Shown one piece after another: positions 3,042-39,099 of a stretch of DNA of 64,000 bases (positions are counted from its first letter, which is position 1; every line of letters begins with the position of its first letter). The translations under genes and the position numbers were made by a program. Origin of the DNA: a virus (Duplodnaviria; Caudoviricetes); the IMG/VR virus record IMGVR_UViG_3300037067_027649, positions 14,964-78,963 of that record; one strand, written 5' to 3'. Below the pieces are notes generated by a model that was not told where the DNA came from, did no database searches, and saw only the letters and a list, made by a program, of their open reading frames with translations.

Positions 3042-3317
3042 TTATAAAATATTTTTTAATTTCATTCTTCTTTTTAAAGAAATATCATCAGTATCCCAAA
3101 ATTCACAAGGAATTTTTTCATCTAAGATTTTAAAACAATTTTTACTTATTTCACAATCATCATTATATCCAAATATTTCAGAACCACTATATGCATGATA
3201 TTTACATGAATGACATAATTTTAATTTAGGATTAAAATTACATATTTTTTCATGTTCTTTAATCTTTTCTTTAGTTCCAGTTTCACTACAAAAATCACAT
3301 TTCCAAACTAATTTCAT
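3042..3317 (-). CDS. small Cys-rich (Zn-finger-like) protein with C-terminal basic tag
   Basis: WKCDFC..HEKIC..NP..KLCHSC..C..C.FW; ends RRMKLKNIL. Confidence 0.65.
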   Translation of the reverse strand: MKLVWKCDFCSETGTKEKIKEHEKICNFNPKLKLCHSCKYHAYSGSEIFGYNDDCEISKNCFKILDEKIPCEFWDTDDISLKRRMKLKNIL

Positions 3318-34549: not shown

Positions 34550-35407
34550 ATGAATAAAGAAATTCATTTTTTCGATTTAGATGGAACACTTTGGGAAATT
34601 CAAGGTAAAGTTTGGGTTATATCAAAAGATAATCCAAATGTACCTTTATTAAAAATAGATAGAGAAGAATTTAATCTTATAAAAAGTGGTTTATATAAAG
34701 AAGATAATATTCAAGTGAATTATAATGACCAATGGTATTGGATACCATCAGAATTAATGGATAGAATTAAAAAGAAAAGAAATTTAGATGAAGATAATAT
34801 TGGTTTTTCATTTAGAGAATTTTTTGATGTTAATTATATAAATAGAATAAAGATTATATTAAAAAACATAATAGATTTAAACAACAAAAAGATTGATGTT
34901 GGTATTATTACTGGTAGACATGATAGAGAAGGTGAACAAGAATTCTTAAATAAATTAAGAATTAAATTAAATGAATTAAATCTTGATATAAATAAAATGT
35001 ATTATCTTGGTGATAGATTTTCATATGAATTAAGAGATAATATATCTTTTTCTAAATCAAAACTTTTATTAGAACATTTAATTGGTATTAAAATAGAAAA
35101 AGATAAATTCGTACCTTTAAAACAAGATTGGTATAAAACTATTTATTTCTATGATGATGAAATACAAAATATATATACAGCTAATAAAATACAACAATTT
35201 TTTAATGAAATTATTAGAAATACAGATGATGAAGTATTTAATATTATAAAAGAAAAAATAACAGAAAACGAATTAATATTATATACTAATTATATATCTA
35301 ATAATGAATTAAATAAATTTAAAACAACAAAAATAATATTAAAAGAACCTGAAAAATTTCCTATAAAATTAGAAAATTTAAATGTTAAAAAATTTAAAGA
35401 ATTTTAA
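34550..35407 (+). CDS. HAD-superfamily protein
   Basis: FFDLDGTLW, ITGR, FYDD. Confidence 0.75.
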   Translation: MNKEIHFFDLDGTLWEIQGKVWVISKDNPNVPLLKIDREEFNLIKSGLYKEDNIQVNYNDQWYWIPSELMDRIKKKRNLDEDNIGFSFREFFDVNYINRIKIILKNIIDLNNKKIDVGIITGRHDREGEQEFLNKLRIKLNELNLDINKMYYLGDRFSYELRDNISFSKSKLLLEHLIGIKIEKDKFVPLKQDWYKTIYFYDDEIQNIYTANKIQQFFNEIIRNTDDEVFNIIKEKITENELILYTNYISNNELNKFKTTKIILKEPEKFPIKLENLNVKKFKEF

Positions 35408-36879
35408 TGTCAAGTTATAGTGGTGTACCAGTTGAAATAAGTTCGATATTAAGTATAACTTTTCCTGTTGATAAACTTGTTGATGAGTTTGTTGCTAGTG
35501 TATTTAATATAAAAGTGGATTTTGAAAAACAATCAAAAGAAGAAATTCAGAAGATTATTTATGAAGATAATAATGTTCCTACGGTGGATGAACCTGGATT
35601 GGCTACGTTGATAGACACATTTATTAGAATGATAATAAAATGTATTGGAAGTTTTGCACAACAAATATTCATATTAACAGAATTGGTTAAAAAAATAAAA
35701 GAAGCTTTAAAAAATCCAACATCAAAATCTAATGCAGAATATTTAGCATCTATACCTAAAAAAATAAAAGAACTTATAAAAGAAGTAAAAACGTTTTTTG
35801 CTGATACTGCTAAATGGATTATGGATAAGTTTTTAGGTGCTTTATCAAAAATTAATATACCAATACCATCTTTTGATTTTAATATCTTGGGGTTTAAATT
35901 AACAATACCTAAAATAGATAATAAAGGAGCATTAAATGATGATTCTAAATTAAATATACCAAAGCATGAGGATGATGAGTTAAAAGATATTAAAAATAAA
36001 ATAGAAGAATTAAATAATAAGATATCAAATTCTAATAAAAATATAGGAGATGATATTGATAATATAACAGATAAATTACAACCTGACTTAGATAAATCTA
36101 AGAAAAAATTAGATGATGGTGAAAAAAAATTAAAAGATAATAATGATAATATAAAAAAATTAGAAAATAAAAAAATTAGAACAGTAGCAGAAAACAAAAA
36201 ATTAAAATTGTTAAAAGAAGAAAATAAAAAATTAACAGAAAACGTAGAAACTTATAAAAAAGATTATGAAAGTAAAAAAGTTCAAATTGATGAACAAATG
36301 AATAAAATTGAAAATAATTTAAATACAAGTGATACAGAAACAGAATTAAAAGAAGCAAAAAACGAATTAAAATCTAAATTAGGTGAAAATCCAGTTTCAG
36401 CATATACTGAAAAAATTAAAGAAATGGTTATAAATATTATAAAATTTCCAGTTGATTTTGTATTTAATTTATTTAAACAATTATTAAAAGCTTTAGTAAA
36501 AATATTTTCATTTGATTTTGGAGAATTTGAAAAATTAATTCAAATGTTAAAACCGAATATTGATAGTGTCGGTCTTTTAATAGGTACTGTTTTAGATGGT
36601 TTCATAGATGGTTTTTCTACATTATATAAAGCAGCTAAAGATAAATTTGGTAATATAAAAGAAAATATAGAAGAAGTTGTTTTATATTTAAAAGATGAAG
36701 GTAATAAAATATTAGGTAGAACTGATTCTGATGAAAATAAAGAAAAATTGAATCAGACAATTAGTTATTTTGTTGTTGGTGTTAATATAATTACAGCTTT
36801 TCCAATTTTATTTTTAAATTTGATAGTAGAATTATTTAATTATGCTTTAAATCCAATAGGTATTAAGATTATAATTTAG
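35407..36879 (+). CDS. coiled-coil protein, possibly structural
   Basis: 490 aa; repeated hydrophobic flanks around a K/E/N-rich coiled coil. Confidence 0.65.
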   Translation: MSSYSGVPVEISSILSITFPVDKLVDEFVASVFNIKVDFEKQSKEEIQKIIYEDNNVPTVDEPGLATLIDTFIRMIIKCIGSFAQQIFILTELVKKIKEALKNPTSKSNAEYLASIPKKIKELIKEVKTFFADTAKWIMDKFLGALSKINIPIPSFDFNILGFKLTIPKIDNKGALNDDSKLNIPKHEDDELKDIKNKIEELNNKISNSNKNIGDDIDNITDKLQPDLDKSKKKLDDGEKKLKDNNDNIKKLENKKIRTVAENKKLKLLKEENKKLTENVETYKKDYESKKVQIDEQMNKIENNLNTSDTETELKEAKNELKSKLGENPVSAYTEKIKEMVINIIKFPVDFVFNLFKQLLKALVKIFSFDFGEFEKLIQMLKPNIDSVGLLIGTVLDGFIDGFSTLYKAAKDKFGNIKENIEEVVLYLKDEGNKILGRTDSDENKEKLNQTISYFVVGVNIITAFPILFLNLIVELFNYALNPIGIKIII

Positions 36880-36889
36880 TTTCAACATC

Positions 36890-37202
36890 ATGAACTACTA
36901 CTAAACTAAAGATTTAGCAGTTTCACGTTTCACAGACTTCTCCAACGAGAACGCCTCACCGTGTTTTTGTTTAAAGTCCAACTTGCGTTCCACAACCAGA
37001 CTATTTTTTTAAATTAAAATTTTTACTTTTTTGATTTTACGTGTTTTAAGATTTTAAAACACAACCAAATATATCAAAGAACTTTTTTATAAATTTATAT
37101 ATTAAATATTTTGGGTCTAAAAATGGTTTTTTTAAATATTTTTATTATATTTGAATAAAATTTTGAAATTCATCTACGAAACTAAAGATTTCGTAGTTTT
37201 CT
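36890..37202 (-). mobile_element. non-autonomous IS200/IS605 (ISDra2-like) miniature element with TnpB 3' / omega-RNA remnant
   Basis: Subterminal hairpins with identical CTAAAGA loop (36897-36921, 37174-37196); target TTGAA, right end TTCAT; remnant KQKHGEAFSLEKSVKRE. Confidence 0.75.
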
Positions 37203-37508
37203 TTCAACAAAAATATAAATTTTATCAATTCTTTCATTACTTAAATATGACATTTTAATGTTTTTAATATTTAGAAATTTTTTAATTGATTTTTCTAATA
37301 TTTCTTTACTTTCTATCATTGTTAAATTGTAGGTAAATTGTAATCTTTCATAAATGAGGTTGTAACAATAAACTCTATTGTTTTCTATATTATATTCTAA
37401 AACAATATTGGTATCTTTTATGTAAAAAACTGAATTTGAATATTTTTCTAATTTAAGTTTCTTTAAATCAGATAACCAAAATTTTATGAAATTTTCTTTA
37501 GTTTTCAT
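37182..37508 (-). CDS. hypothetical protein; last 6 codons supplied by the mini-IS left end
   Basis: ...YIFVE|RKLRNL*; paralog of the 23340 family. Confidence 0.7.
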   Translation of the reverse strand: MKTKENFIKFWLSDLKKLKLEKYSNSVFYIKDTNIVLEYNIENNRVYCYNLIYERLQFTYNLTMIESKEILEKSIKKFLNIKNIKMSYLSNERIDKIYIFVERKLRNL

Positions 37509-37822
37509 TATAATTTTTTATTTATGTTTTCAATCATACCAACATCAATATTATCATCTTTAAATATTTTATTTAATTTTAGTTTTCTATATTCTTTTAA
37601 TGATATAAATCTATCTTCATCGAAATAAAAATCTAATTTTTCTATTATTTTTACTAATTTTCCTATTCCACTTGTTTTTATATCAATAATTTTATATTTT
37701 TTTCCTTTTTTTAAATATAAAAGAGCATTATGAAATTCAGTATCATATTCACCTATTGAATCTGGTATAATGTTATTAGATACACAAACAACCGTTTCGC
37801 CTATTTTAAAATTGTTATTCAT
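37508..37822 (-). CDS. small KOW/SH3-like protein with basic tag
   Basis: FKIGETVVCV...Y.I; EYRKLKLNKIF. Confidence 0.7.
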   Translation of the reverse strand: MNNNFKIGETVVCVSNNIIPDSIGEYDTEFHNALLYLKKGKKYKIIDIKTSGIGKLVKIIEKLDFYFDEDRFISLKEYRKLKLNKIFKDDNIDVGMIENINKKL

Positions 37823-38033
37823 CTAAAATTTTATTAATCTTTTGTTTTCTCAAATCTTTTTTTGTTTTAAAAACATATTTTATTATTCGTATAGTATTAC
37901 CTTTATGATTAAACCAAAGATATCCAAAATTATTTACATCAACAATTGTGTATTCTTTATATTTTTCAAAATATGGTTGTTCATCATCACCAATGTAAAC
38001 AACTTTATCACCAATTTTATAATTATATTTCAT
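37815..38033 (-). CDS. small KOW/SH3-like protein with basic tag
   Basis: YKIGDKVVYI; DLRKQKINKIL. Confidence 0.7.
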   Translation of the reverse strand: MKYNYKIGDKVVYIGDDEQPYFEKYKEYTIVDVNNFGYLWFNHKGNTIRIIKYVFKTKKDLRKQKINKILDE

Positions 38034-38250
38034 TTAAAATTTTATTAATCTTTTGTTTTCTCAAATCTTTTAATGTTATAAAATTTTTTTTATTATATGA
38101 ACATAGTACATTATTATCATTTATTAATACAATAAAAATATCATCAGGAATATTACAGATTTTATATTTTTTATACAATTTTATATATTGATAAGCAGAA
38201 TTATCAACACATAATACTATATCATCTTTTTTAAATTTATTTTTATTCAT
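38023..38250 (-). CDS. small KOW/SH3-like protein with basic tag
   Basis: FKKDDIVLCV; DLRKQKINKIL. Confidence 0.7.
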   Translation of the reverse strand: MNKNKFKKDDIVLCVDNSAYQYIKLYKKYKICNIPDDIFIVLINDNNVLCSYNKKNFITLKDLRKQKINKILNEI

Positions 38251-38551
38251 TTAAAATTAAATTTAATTTTAAAATTTTTAATTTTCTTAAATTCTTTTCA
38301 TTTATTAAAAATATATCTTTATCACCTAAAATGTTTTTTTCTTCATCTGTTGCAAGTCTTATATGTTGATAATATAATGAATTATGAGATTTTGCTGTAG
38401 TTTTATAATTATATCCAGCTATTTGTTTTGTAATTCTTGTTATACAAGGTTGTTCACCACGCCAAACTATAATATCACCCTTTATATAAATATGATATGA
38501 TCCAAATGGTGTGTTTGGTTTATATAAAAATTTTTCTACATTATTATTCAT
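38243..38551 (-). CDS. hypothetical protein with basic tag
   Basis: NLRKLKILKL. Confidence 0.65.
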   Translation of the reverse strand: MNNNVEKFLYKPNTPFGSYHIYIKGDIIVWRGEQPCITRITKQIAGYNYKTTAKSHNSLYYQHIRLATDEEKNILGDKDIFLINEKNLRKLKILKLNLILNE

Positions 38552-38781
38552 TATTTAAATATTTTTTTAAGTTTTGTTACTCTTTCTTCATTTTTTGAAT
38601 AAAAATTTGTTATTCTAAACCAAGAATGAATATTATCTATCATAATAAAAGTTTTTGTTAAATTTATTTTTATTATAGTATAATGTTTACCTATTTTTAG
38701 ATTACTCATGTTAAGATCATATTTTATAGGTTCATTTTTAATACAAATAACTTTATCCCCTATTTTAAAATTATTATTCAT
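38551..38781 (-). CDS. small KOW/SH3-like protein with basic tag
   Basis: FKIGDKVICI; EERVTKLKKIF; TATATTTG at 38786-38793. Confidence 0.7.
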   Translation of the reverse strand: MNNNFKIGDKVICIKNEPIKYDLNMSNLKIGKHYTIIKINLTKTFIMIDNIHSWFRITNFYSKNEERVTKLKKIFK

Positions 38782-38847
38782 TATACAAATATAATATTTT
38801 TTTGTTAATATTAAAAAAATTTTATTATATTTACAAAAAAAATATAA

Positions 38848-39099
38848 ATGGATTTTAAAGAAGGTGATATTGTAGTTTGTATTAAAAAACCAGCTTTACA
38901 AAATTCAATTTTTGGTATACAATTGAATTTATATCAAAAATATAAAGTTGTTAGTGTTTATGTAAAAACTATATCAATATCTGATATTATATCAGATGAT
39001 GATAATAAATTTATTCCTGTTCAAAATTTTAAAAAGAAATATTTCATATCTGAAAATGAATTTAGAAAAATGAAAATTAAAAAGATTTTACATGGATAA
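38848..39099 (+). CDS. small KOW/SH3-like protein with basic tag
   Basis: FKEGDIVVCI; EFRKMKIKKIL. Confidence 0.7.
   Translation: MDFKEGDIVVCIKKPALQNSIFGIQLNLYQKYKVVSVYVKTISISDIISDDDNKFIPVQNFKKKYFISENEFRKMKIKKILHG

What the first reader, a model, noticed from the sequence alone, without database searches (positions are those of the whole stretch)
36869..37207. 313-bp mini IS200/IS605 element retaining an omega-RNA end and a phage-type promoter
Seen (minus strand): TTGAA|AGAAAACTACGAAATCTTTAGTTTCGTAG...CTGCTAAATCTTTAGTTTAGTAGTAGTTCAT|GATGTTGAAACTAAATTATAA. Both ends have hairpins with the same loop. No tnpA/tnpB ORF is present, only a TnpB-tail remnant (SGCGTQ / KQKHGEAFSLEKSVKRE). Excision restores the host gene end ...YIFVE|DVETKL*. 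TTAATATATA (37096-37105) points into the scaffold. Established: the TnpB omega-RNA spans the right end, its guide is the flanking DNA, and it targets TAM plus empty site. Inference: a guide-only parasite that, with TnpB in trans, would cut empty alleles; its guide is also antisense to the end of 35407..36879.
Basis: partly seen in the sequence, partly recalled or inferred. Interest (0 to 1): 0.7.

Follow-up and report, generated by a model that had tools for sequence, protein, structure and literature searches.

The report
Gene-less TnpB guide-RNA mini-transposon in megaphage
A 325-base jumping element that has lost its genes but keeps both transposon ends, a phage-type promoter box and a complete guide-RNA scaffold for the RNA-guided nuclease TnpB sits at the 3' end of a small gene of a very AT-rich giant phage. 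This kind of element is already described, so the finding is real but fairly ordinary.

Summary
The element is real, but its left boundary and TAM were misread. It is a protein-less IS200/IS605 derivative (PATE type) on the minus strand at 37214..36890. That makes it 325 bp, not 313.

The insertion motif is TTTAT (37219-37215), not TTGAA. TTGAA is the 5' arm of a covarying stem inside the left end. An uninterrupted allele of the sister full-length element in the same phage record shows that the 12 nt before AGAAAAC belong to the element.

The right ~177 nt fold into four helices that match compensatory changes across 13 related copies. They are homologous to the 3' end of an intact tnpB elsewhere (L028). 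The box TTAATATATA is conserved in most minis and recurs upstream of at least 12 phage genes.

At least six other minis of the same build (221-348 bp) lie at different sites in other giant-phage contigs, so the miniature itself has spread.

No RNA data, no empty allele of this copy, no TnpA and no matching TnpB were found in the 79-kb record, which is about 11% of the genome. The only TnpB there has a different scaffold and Gly at the RuvC-II Glu position.

PATEs encoding omega-RNAs are already described (Meers 2023). This scan has also met the type in other phages. Verdict: a new member of a known kind.

The parts
37215..37219 (-). TAM/target pentanucleotide TTTAT, immediately 5' of the element; not part of the element
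   Evidence: TTTAT or TTTAA lies 11-14 nt (mostly 12) before AGAAA in every related LE. The empty allele L086 of the sister element ends its left flank exactly at TTTAT.
36890..37214 (-). Whole non-autonomous IS200/IS605 (PATE-type) element, 325 bp
   Evidence: Boundaries. No ORF of 40 aa or more lies inside it.
37163..37214 (-). Left end. It comprises a 12-nt leader ATTTTTGTTGAA; an outer stem TTGAAA (37207-37202) pairing with TTTCAA (37168-37163); AGAAAAC in the guide position; the hairpin CTACGAAA-TCTTTAG-TTTCGTAG (37196-37174); and GATGAA.
   Evidence: Fold. The outer stem shows 13 compensated variants in 17 LEs. The mini in L021 has the identical 12-nt leader behind a different flank.
37096..37105 (-). 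Promoter-like box TTAATATATA, pointing toward the omega-RNA region
   Evidence: Conserved in the minis of window, L007, L021, L025 and L042. The motif occurs 19 times in the window against 6.4 expected, mostly 19-47 nt upstream of gene starts. Function not tested.
37031..37066 (-). GGTT, then stem-loop 1 (9 bp, loop AATC), then the conserved GTAAAATCAA
   Evidence: MFE fold. The stem has five different compensated versions in related minis. GTAAAATCAA corresponds to GAAAATCAAGG in the tnpB 3' coding region of L028.
36975..37002 (-). Scaffold helix AGTCTGG-(TTGTG GAA CGCAA)-TTGGACT
   Evidence: Outer pairs come from RNAalifold. The inner stem varies with compensation: TTCAG/CTGAA, ATCAG/CTGAT, TTTAG/CTAAA, TTCTG/CAGAA.
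36924..36974 (-). A-rich linker TTAAACAAAAA, then the helix CACG..GAGGCGTTCTC-GTTG-GAGAAGTC..CGTG. This stretch doubles as the TnpB-tail remnant KQKHGEAFSLEKSVKRE.
   Evidence: The CACG/CGTG stem has compensatory changes.
36890..36923 (-). Right end: GAAAC in the guide position, the hairpin ACTGCTAAA-TCTTTAG-TTTAGTAGT, and the TEM TTCAT (36894-36890)
   Evidence: Hairpin pairs show up to 8 of 13 sequences changed on both sides.
36870..36889 (-). Predicted guide/target segment GATGTTGAAACTAAATTATA, which is flanking phage DNA. It is antisense to the stop codon and last codons of gene 35407..36879.
   Evidence: By its position immediately 3' of the RE. The exact 16-mer is unique in the window. 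Its use as a guide is inferred.
37182..37508 (-). Host gene (108-aa ORF as it stands). Its last 10 codons and the TAG stop are supplied by the element. The pre-insertion end is inferred as ...RIDKIY|DVETKL*.
   Evidence: It is an orphan apart from a 30%-identical syntenic gene in L079.

Best explanation
This is a 325-bp non-autonomous IS200/IS605-family element of the PATE type. It inserted 3' of TTTAT in the last codons of a small gene of a roughly 700-kb, 20% GC phage.

It keeps the two subterminal hairpins that a Y1 (HUH) TnpA transposase needs, the promoter-box region of the parent element, and the full 3'-terminal omega-RNA gene of a canonical TnpB element. The tnpB ORF itself has been deleted.

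Proposed working: transcription from the internal box runs through the scaffold and across the right end, so the RNA ends in a guide copied from the flank (GATGTTGAAACTAAAT...). Loaded on a cognate TnpB made elsewhere, this RNA would cut TTTAT+guide. That sequence is the donor joint left by excision, and also the unoccupied site in a co-infecting sister phage. Recombinational repair from an occupied copy would then restore or spread the element. Movement to new sites needs TnpA in trans.

Shown here: the anatomy, the boundaries, homology to intact elements, RNA covariation, and spread of the miniature as a family.

Inferred: transcription, the TnpB partner, cleavage, and present-day activity.
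For: - Ends and hairpins.
- Boundary and TAM: TTTAT or TTTAA precedes every LE. The uninterrupted allele (P0011/L086) of the sister element joins ...AATTTAT directly to the right flank and lacks the 12-nt leader.
- Family membership: an element with the same ends in a related 421-kb phage contig carries a Y1 tnpA and a canonical tnpB.
- Scaffold homology: the same scaffold forms the 3' end of an intact 407-aa TnpB with the RuvC-II Glu (CIEDL), the RuvC-III DRD motif and two CxxC motifs (L028). It is also present in L019.
- RNA structure: 11 of 29 predicted pairs have double-sided changes. The inner stems and stem-loop 1 are compensated. The MFE fold gives the same four helices, z = -2.96.
- Spread as a miniature: minis of 221-348 bp with the same internal layout sit at different sites in L007, L013, L021, L024, L025 and L042.
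- Promoter box: conserved in the minis and enriched upstream of phage genes.
- Literature: PATEs 'often encode omega-RNAs' that need TnpB in trans (PMC10055086).
Against: - No TnpA is present in the 79-kb record.
- The only TnpB there shares just the last ~40 nt of scaffold with the mini. It also has Gly at the RuvC-II Glu column and has lost three of four Zn-finger Cys.
- The record is only about 11% of the genome, so absence is weak evidence.
- No empty allele of this particular insertion was found.
- The RE hairpin stem of this copy has one G-T mismatch at the DNA level.
- The Rfam library gave no match. That may only mean that no suitable model is in it.
Confidence: 0.72

Rival explanations
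1. Inert relic. The anatomy is the same, but this copy is a dead leftover that is neither transcribed into a working omega-RNA nor mobilisable, because no compatible TnpA or TnpB is present in this phage-host pair. It persists only because it is harmless at the 3' end of a small gene.
For: There is no TnpA and no matching TnpB in the record. The resident TnpB looks non-canonical. The host gene remains open with a replaced C-terminus. The tnpA in the related contig appears frameshifted.
Against: All four helices are intact in this copy, and the family shows compensatory rather than random change. The promoter box is retained. Only about 11% of the genome is available.
Confidence: 0.2
2. One reading: a 313-bp element inserted after TAM TTGAA, whose excision restores ...YIFVE|DVETKL*.
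For: The junction is in frame. TTGAA resembles the ISDra2 TAM TTGAT (from my own knowledge, not tested here).
Against: TTGAA varies between copies and covaries with an internal segment. The L021 mini shares the 12 nt upstream of AGAAA but not the flank before TTTAT. The empty allele of the sister element lacks those 12 nt. With the TTGAA boundary, the gene interrupted by the sister element stops after two codons; with TTTAT it restores the 57-aa protein found intact elsewhere.
Confidence: 0.03
3. Exapted phage RNA or terminator. The element now serves the phage, for example as an antisense RNA against the 3' end of gene 35407..36879, or as a bidirectional terminator between convergent genes, independently of TnpB.
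For: The read-through transcript would be antisense to the last 10 nt of the 490-aa gene. On the + strand the LE hairpin is followed by a T-run and scores as terminator-like.
Against: Related minis sit in unrelated contexts with unrelated flanks. The conserved parts are those of the omega-RNA scaffold and the transposon ends. The 81%-identical relative has the same convergent gene pair with no element between them.
Confidence: 0.05

Closest known systems
PATE-like minimal IS200/IS605 elements encoding omega-RNAs in Geobacillus stearothermophilus (Meers et al. 2023, PMC10055086)
   Same: Protein-less; LE and RE with subterminal hairpins; omega-RNA retained at the RE; dependent on TnpA and TnpB supplied in trans; guide is the DNA flanking the RE.
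   Different: This one lies in a giant-phage genome rather than a bacterial chromosome and carries a box identical to the phage's recurrent gene-upstream motif. It belongs to a diverged lineage of minis spread over many phage contigs. No partner proteins were seen in the available fragment.
PATEs of haloarchaea (Dyall-Smith et al. 2011, PMC3119063, the paper found)
   Same: Short, gene-less derivatives of IS200/IS605 elements with palindromic ends.
   Different: Those were described before omega-RNAs were known. The host domain and the sequences are different.
IS608 / ISDra2 (autonomous IS200/IS605 elements; comparison from my own knowledge of the published work)
   Same: Insertion 3' of a 4-5 nt motif with no target duplication. 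The hairpin foot lies 19 nt from the left cleavage site, as in IS608. A related motif (TTCAT) ends the RE. A short segment 5' of each hairpin (AGAAAAC, GTGAAAC) sits where the DNA guides lie.
   Different: No tnpA or tnpB. The TAM is TTTAT. The LE has an extra covarying outer stem that encloses the hairpin.
Gene-less TnpB guide-RNA minis noted earlier by this scan in other phages (e1-5642301, e1-5666462, e1-5758259, e1-5841675, e1-5780841)
   Same: The same kind of object: 170-315 bp, both ends, an omega-RNA scaffold, and often a phage promoter motif.
   Different: Those are on other genomes and other sequence families. They are AI notes that I did not check.

Membership tests
IS200/IS605 family, non-autonomous (PATE-type) | Subterminal imperfect palindromes at both ends instead of terminal inverted repeats | tested here: met
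   LE and RE hairpins with the same loop TCTTTAG. The hairpins are conserved with compensatory stem changes in about 25 copies.
IS200/IS605 family, non-autonomous (PATE-type) | Insertion 3' of a fixed short motif (TAM), with no target-site duplication and scarless excision | tested here: met
   Met for the sister element with the same ends: empty allele L086 against occupied L002 shows no duplication and a junction TTTAT|flank. For the mini itself this rests on homology of the ends; no empty allele of its own was found.
IS200/IS605 family, non-autonomous (PATE-type) | Association of the end type with a Y1 HUH transposase (TnpA) | tested here: inconclusive
   None is present in the window's record. 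A Y1_Tnp gene, read in two frames, lies inside an element with the same LE, RE and TAM in related contig G001.
IS200/IS605 family, non-autonomous (PATE-type) | No protein-coding gene between the ends | tested here: met
   No ORF of 40 aa or more in 36890-37214. The tnpB tail is present only as a frame-shifted remnant of 35 codons.
TnpB omega-RNA (OMEGA guide RNA) | Scaffold derived from the 3' end of tnpB plus the RE, with the guide read from the flank | tested here: met
   The scaffold aligns with the 3' end of intact tnpB in L028 and L019. It abuts the RE, and the flank differs in every copy.
TnpB omega-RNA (OMEGA guide RNA) | Conserved secondary structure supported by covariation | tested here: met
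   RNAalifold finds 11 of 29 pairs with double-sided changes. Compensated inner stems are shown. The MFE fold gives the same helices, z = -2.96. Caveat: the RE hairpin could be conserved for TnpA at the DNA level.
TnpB omega-RNA (OMEGA guide RNA) | A cognate TnpB available to bind it | tested here: not met
   The only TnpB in the 79-kb record has a different scaffold upstream of the last ~40 nt, and has Gly at the RuvC-II Glu column. The record is about 11% of the genome, so this is a weak negative.
TnpB omega-RNA (OMEGA guide RNA) | The RNA is made and processed | not testable with these tools

The most novel reading that the evidence does not exclude
The minis are a long-lived, phage-adapted lineage of guide-only gene-drive elements. 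Transcribed from the phage's own (possibly late) promoter type, they borrow a TnpB from a co-resident element or from the host. They use it to cut sister or competitor megaphage genomes that lack the insertion during co-infection. The result is spread by homing, or exclusion of rivals, much as free-standing homing endonucleases do in T4-like phages but without encoding any protein.
Probability: 0.2. Interest if true: 0.55.

Novelty: new member of a known kind. Interest (0 to 1): 0.3.

Why it matters
It adds a well-delimited example, and a family of at least seven sister copies, of omega-RNA-only mini-transposons living in giant phages. It comes with a defined TAM (TTTAT), TEM (TTCAT) and a covariation-supported scaffold.

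That gives a concrete substrate for testing whether guide RNAs can parasitise TnpB in trans in phage populations. It does not change what is known about how these systems work.

A practical point for annotation: the left boundary of such elements can be misplaced when an internal stem arm resembles a known TAM.

Tried and rejected
- Rfam scan of 35000-39000 at E up to 1: no match.
- Empty allele of the mini:
  - The host 108-aa protein has no relative in viral contigs and only itself among 5.8 billion proteins.
  - An exact-pattern scan of metagenome contigs for TTTAT-(0-12 nt)-guide found nothing.
  - The same kind of scan for the L021 mini in viral contigs found nothing.
- Neighbouring 490-aa gene:
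  - No relative in viral contigs.
  - An 81% homologue on Logan contig L079 has the same convergent gene pair with no element. The small gene's C-terminus is not alignable there, so it gives no junction.
- Sequencing runs: groundwater, landfill and manure metagenome runs hold the stretch or parts of it, and no RNA holder is listed.
- Genome-contig scan with a 19-base scaffold pattern: mostly chance hits in GC-rich coding DNA. The only real members were three contigs of one Saccharofermentanales MAG, one of which has the same length as an IMG/VR phage contig.
- Sigma-70-type promoter scan of the region: no more sites than in shuffles.
- Alternative genetic codes: table 11 already gives dense coding, and I did not pursue recoding further.
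- Guide matches elsewhere in the window: only the site itself at 2 or fewer mismatches.

Full report
**Setting**

The window is bases 14964-78963 of a 78,963-bp IMG/VR record, which CheckV rates as about 11% complete. GC content is about 20% throughout. Relatives of the neighbouring gene lie on contigs of 640-678 kb. Related records holding the same transposon family are rated 11-59% complete at 76-421 kb. Together this indicates a phage of roughly 700 kb. Table 11 gives dense coding.

**What is at the site**

Read on the minus strand, the small ORF 37508..37182 runs into a hairpin, CTACGAAA-TCTTTAG-TTTCGTAG. About 270 nt further on there is a second hairpin with the same 7-nt loop, followed by GTAGTTCAT. 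No ORF of 40 aa or more lies between them. Both hairpins fold better than shuffled sequence.

**A sister element with a gene**

A search of the whole record with the element found its two ends again 1.4 kb apart, just upstream of the window. They bracket a 407-aa ORF that matches OrfB_IS605, the Cas12f1-like TNB domain and HTH_OrfB_IS605. That is a TnpB-only IS605-type element.

The two copies share the LE over about 130 nt, including the promoter-box region, and the last ~40 nt of the RE. The region between is not shared.

**The family**

- An exact search with the RE in IMG/VR gave 11 loci.
- A search with a scaffold motif gave 18 viral loci. It also gave three contigs of one Saccharofermentanales MAG, one of which has the same length as an IMG/VR contig.
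- All copies end in GTAGTTCAT, and the sequence after it is unrelated from copy to copy.
- The scaffold of the window's mini occurs as the 3' end of an intact, canonical TnpB in L028 (407 aa, with CIEDL, two CxxC motifs and DRD) and in the partial L019 copy. Their C-termini read ...SGLGTKS-VKQK-GEAFSLEKS....
- The window keeps this tail as SGCGTQ in one frame and KQKHGEAFSLEKSVKRET in another, separated by a 1-nt indel. Coding constraint has gone while the RNA helices remain.
- Minis of 221-348 bp with the same internal order sit at different sites in L007, L013, L021, L024, L025 and L042. The order is LE, AT-rich segment, TTAATATATA box, GTTC-TTGA segment, GGTT-stem-loop-GTAAAATCA, AT-rich linker, scaffold, RE. 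The miniature form itself has therefore transposed and diverged. It is not a one-off deletion.

**Left boundary and TAM**

Three observations contradict this.

1. The 5-8 nt before AGAAA differ between copies and always pair with the bases that follow GATGAA. Across 17 left ends there are 13 different arm sequences, with 5-9 contiguous pairs each. This is an internal stem of the LE, not a fixed target motif.
2. TTTAT, or TTTAA in the AGAAATC subgroup, lies 11-14 nt (mostly 12) upstream of AGAAA in every LE. The L021 mini has the identical 12 nt ATTTTTGTTGAA behind an unrelated flank.
3. This is the decisive one. The sister element interrupts a small gene on the other strand. Joining its flanks at TTTAT restores a 57-aa ORF, while joining at TTGAA gives a stop after two codons. 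A search found an uninterrupted 57-aa homologue at 89% identity (P0011). Its DNA (L086) reads ...AATTTAT followed directly by the right flank, without the 12 nt.

The TAM is therefore TTTAT and the TEM is TTCAT. There is no target duplication. The hairpin foot lies 19 nt from the cleavage site, the same spacing as in IS608 (from my own knowledge).

By homology of the ends, the mini spans 37214..36890, which is 325 bp. Its pre-insertion gene end is ...RIDKIY|DVETKL*. This also leaves the R-x-x-K-I-x-x-hydrophobic motif, shared by about 20 small proteins here, within the usual 0-7 residues of the stop. That last point is weak support only.

**Link to TnpA**

The record has no Y1 transposase. In a related 421-kb contig, an element with the same layout carries a Y1_Tnp gene and a canonical 387-aa tnpB. 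Its ends read TTTAT|ATTTTTGTGAA-AGAAAACC... at the LE and ...GCGGTAGTTCAT| at the RE. The tnpA hit falls in two frames, so it is either frameshifted or affected by a sequencing error. The end type therefore belongs to a genuine IS200/IS605 lineage.

**The RNA**

An alignment of 13 distinct scaffolds gives a consensus of three helices plus the RE hairpin. Of 29 predicted pairs, 11 are kept through double-sided changes.

Reading the variable inner stem directly shows compensated versions:
- TTGTG/CGCAA
- TTCAG/CTGAA
- ATCAG/CTGAT
- TTTAG/CTAAA
- TTCTG/CAGAA

The upstream stem-loop 1 shows five compensated 9-bp versions. The window's 177 nt from GGTT to the RE fold into exactly these four helices, at -39.2 kcal/mol with z = -2.96.

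One caveat: the RE hairpin is also a DNA signal for TnpA, so its covariation is not specific to an RNA role.

**The promoter claim**

TTAATATATA occurs 19 times in the window against 6.4 expected, and no shuffle reached 19. At least 12 copies lie 6-47 nt (mostly 19-47 nt) upstream of the start of an ORF of 60 aa or more. It is a real recurrent upstream motif.

The same box is conserved in five of the six full-length minis compared. A one-mismatch version precedes tnpB in the sister element. That it points into the scaffold is correct. That it fires is untested, and a sigma-70 consensus scan is uninformative in DNA this AT-rich.

**Partners**

The record's only TnpB has a different scaffold. 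An alignment with four canonical relatives shows:
- Gly where the RuvC-II Glu sits (IVGDL against IEDL, VEDL or LETL).
- Only one of the four Zn-finger Cys retained.
- The RuvC-I Asp and the DRD motif intact.
- The same state in a 74%-identical homologue in another contig (L006).

It is therefore an unlikely partner for the mini's RNA. A cognate L028-type TnpB must be sought in the missing 89% of the phage or in the host.

**What could not be done**

No empty allele of this insertion exists in the collections searched. The closest relative (L079) lacks the element between the same convergent genes, but it is too diverged at the junction to give a boundary.

**Comparison and verdict**

Meers et al. 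2023 describe PATE-like elements that lack protein genes, and state that PATEs often encode omega-RNAs that must be acted on in trans by TnpB from other IS elements (PMC10055086). A 2026 review of OMEGA homing that I checked did not mention phage-borne guide-only elements. This scan's own notes list several in other phages; those are AI notes that I did not check.

The object is a clear, well-delimited new member of a known kind. Its structural identity is secure. Its present activity, and any role in competition between phages, are open.

Noticed in passing
L002:1646-2869 (+) = G000:C1:8110-9330, outside the window: The record's only TnpB sits in an IS with intact ends. It has Gly at the RuvC-II catalytic Glu column (IVGDL) and keeps one of four Zn-finger Cys. 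A 74%-identical homologue in another phage contig (L006:811-2046) shares both features. It may be nuclease-dead, or its active site may be rearranged.
   Followed up: partly
window, 19 sites, e.g. 21506, 24187, 34518, 43341, 56754, 59265 (+); 33896, 50195, 55888 (-): TTAATATATA is about three-fold over-represented and mostly lies 19-47 nt upstream of gene starts. It is a candidate promoter element of this phage, shared with the transposon family.
   Followed up: partly
window, C-termini of about 20 small ORFs, e.g. 3042, 3314, 37815, 38023, 38848, 41097, 43933: Many small proteins end in R-K-x-K-I-x-K-I plus 0-7 residues. The TAM TTTAT of the mini lies inside this motif in gene 37508..37182.
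   Followed up: partly
L024:5583-5930 (-), L030, L049: One mini carries a 17-nt insertion, itself palindromic (CCCTTTAGGG core), inside the RE hairpin loop. The same insertion allele appears in two IMG/VR contigs and in a contig binned into a Saccharofermentanales MAG.
   Followed up: no
L084 (G001:C1:297000-301200), tnpA at about G001:C1:300335-300699: The only Y1 transposase found in this element family is read in two overlapping frames. This could be a frameshift, programmed or not, or an assembly error.
   Followed up: no
window 37174-37196 (+): On the plus strand the LE hairpin is followed by TTTTCTTTCA and scores as an intrinsic-terminator-like site, about 300 nt downstream of the stop of gene 35407..36879.
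   Followed up: no
L007 minus strand, around position 3244 of the reverse complement: An LE variant in which the usual AGAAAAC/GATGAA internal loop is replaced by a fully paired 19-bp palindrome (GTCAAATTCATCTACGACA ... TGTCGTAGATGAATTTGAC).
   Followed up: no
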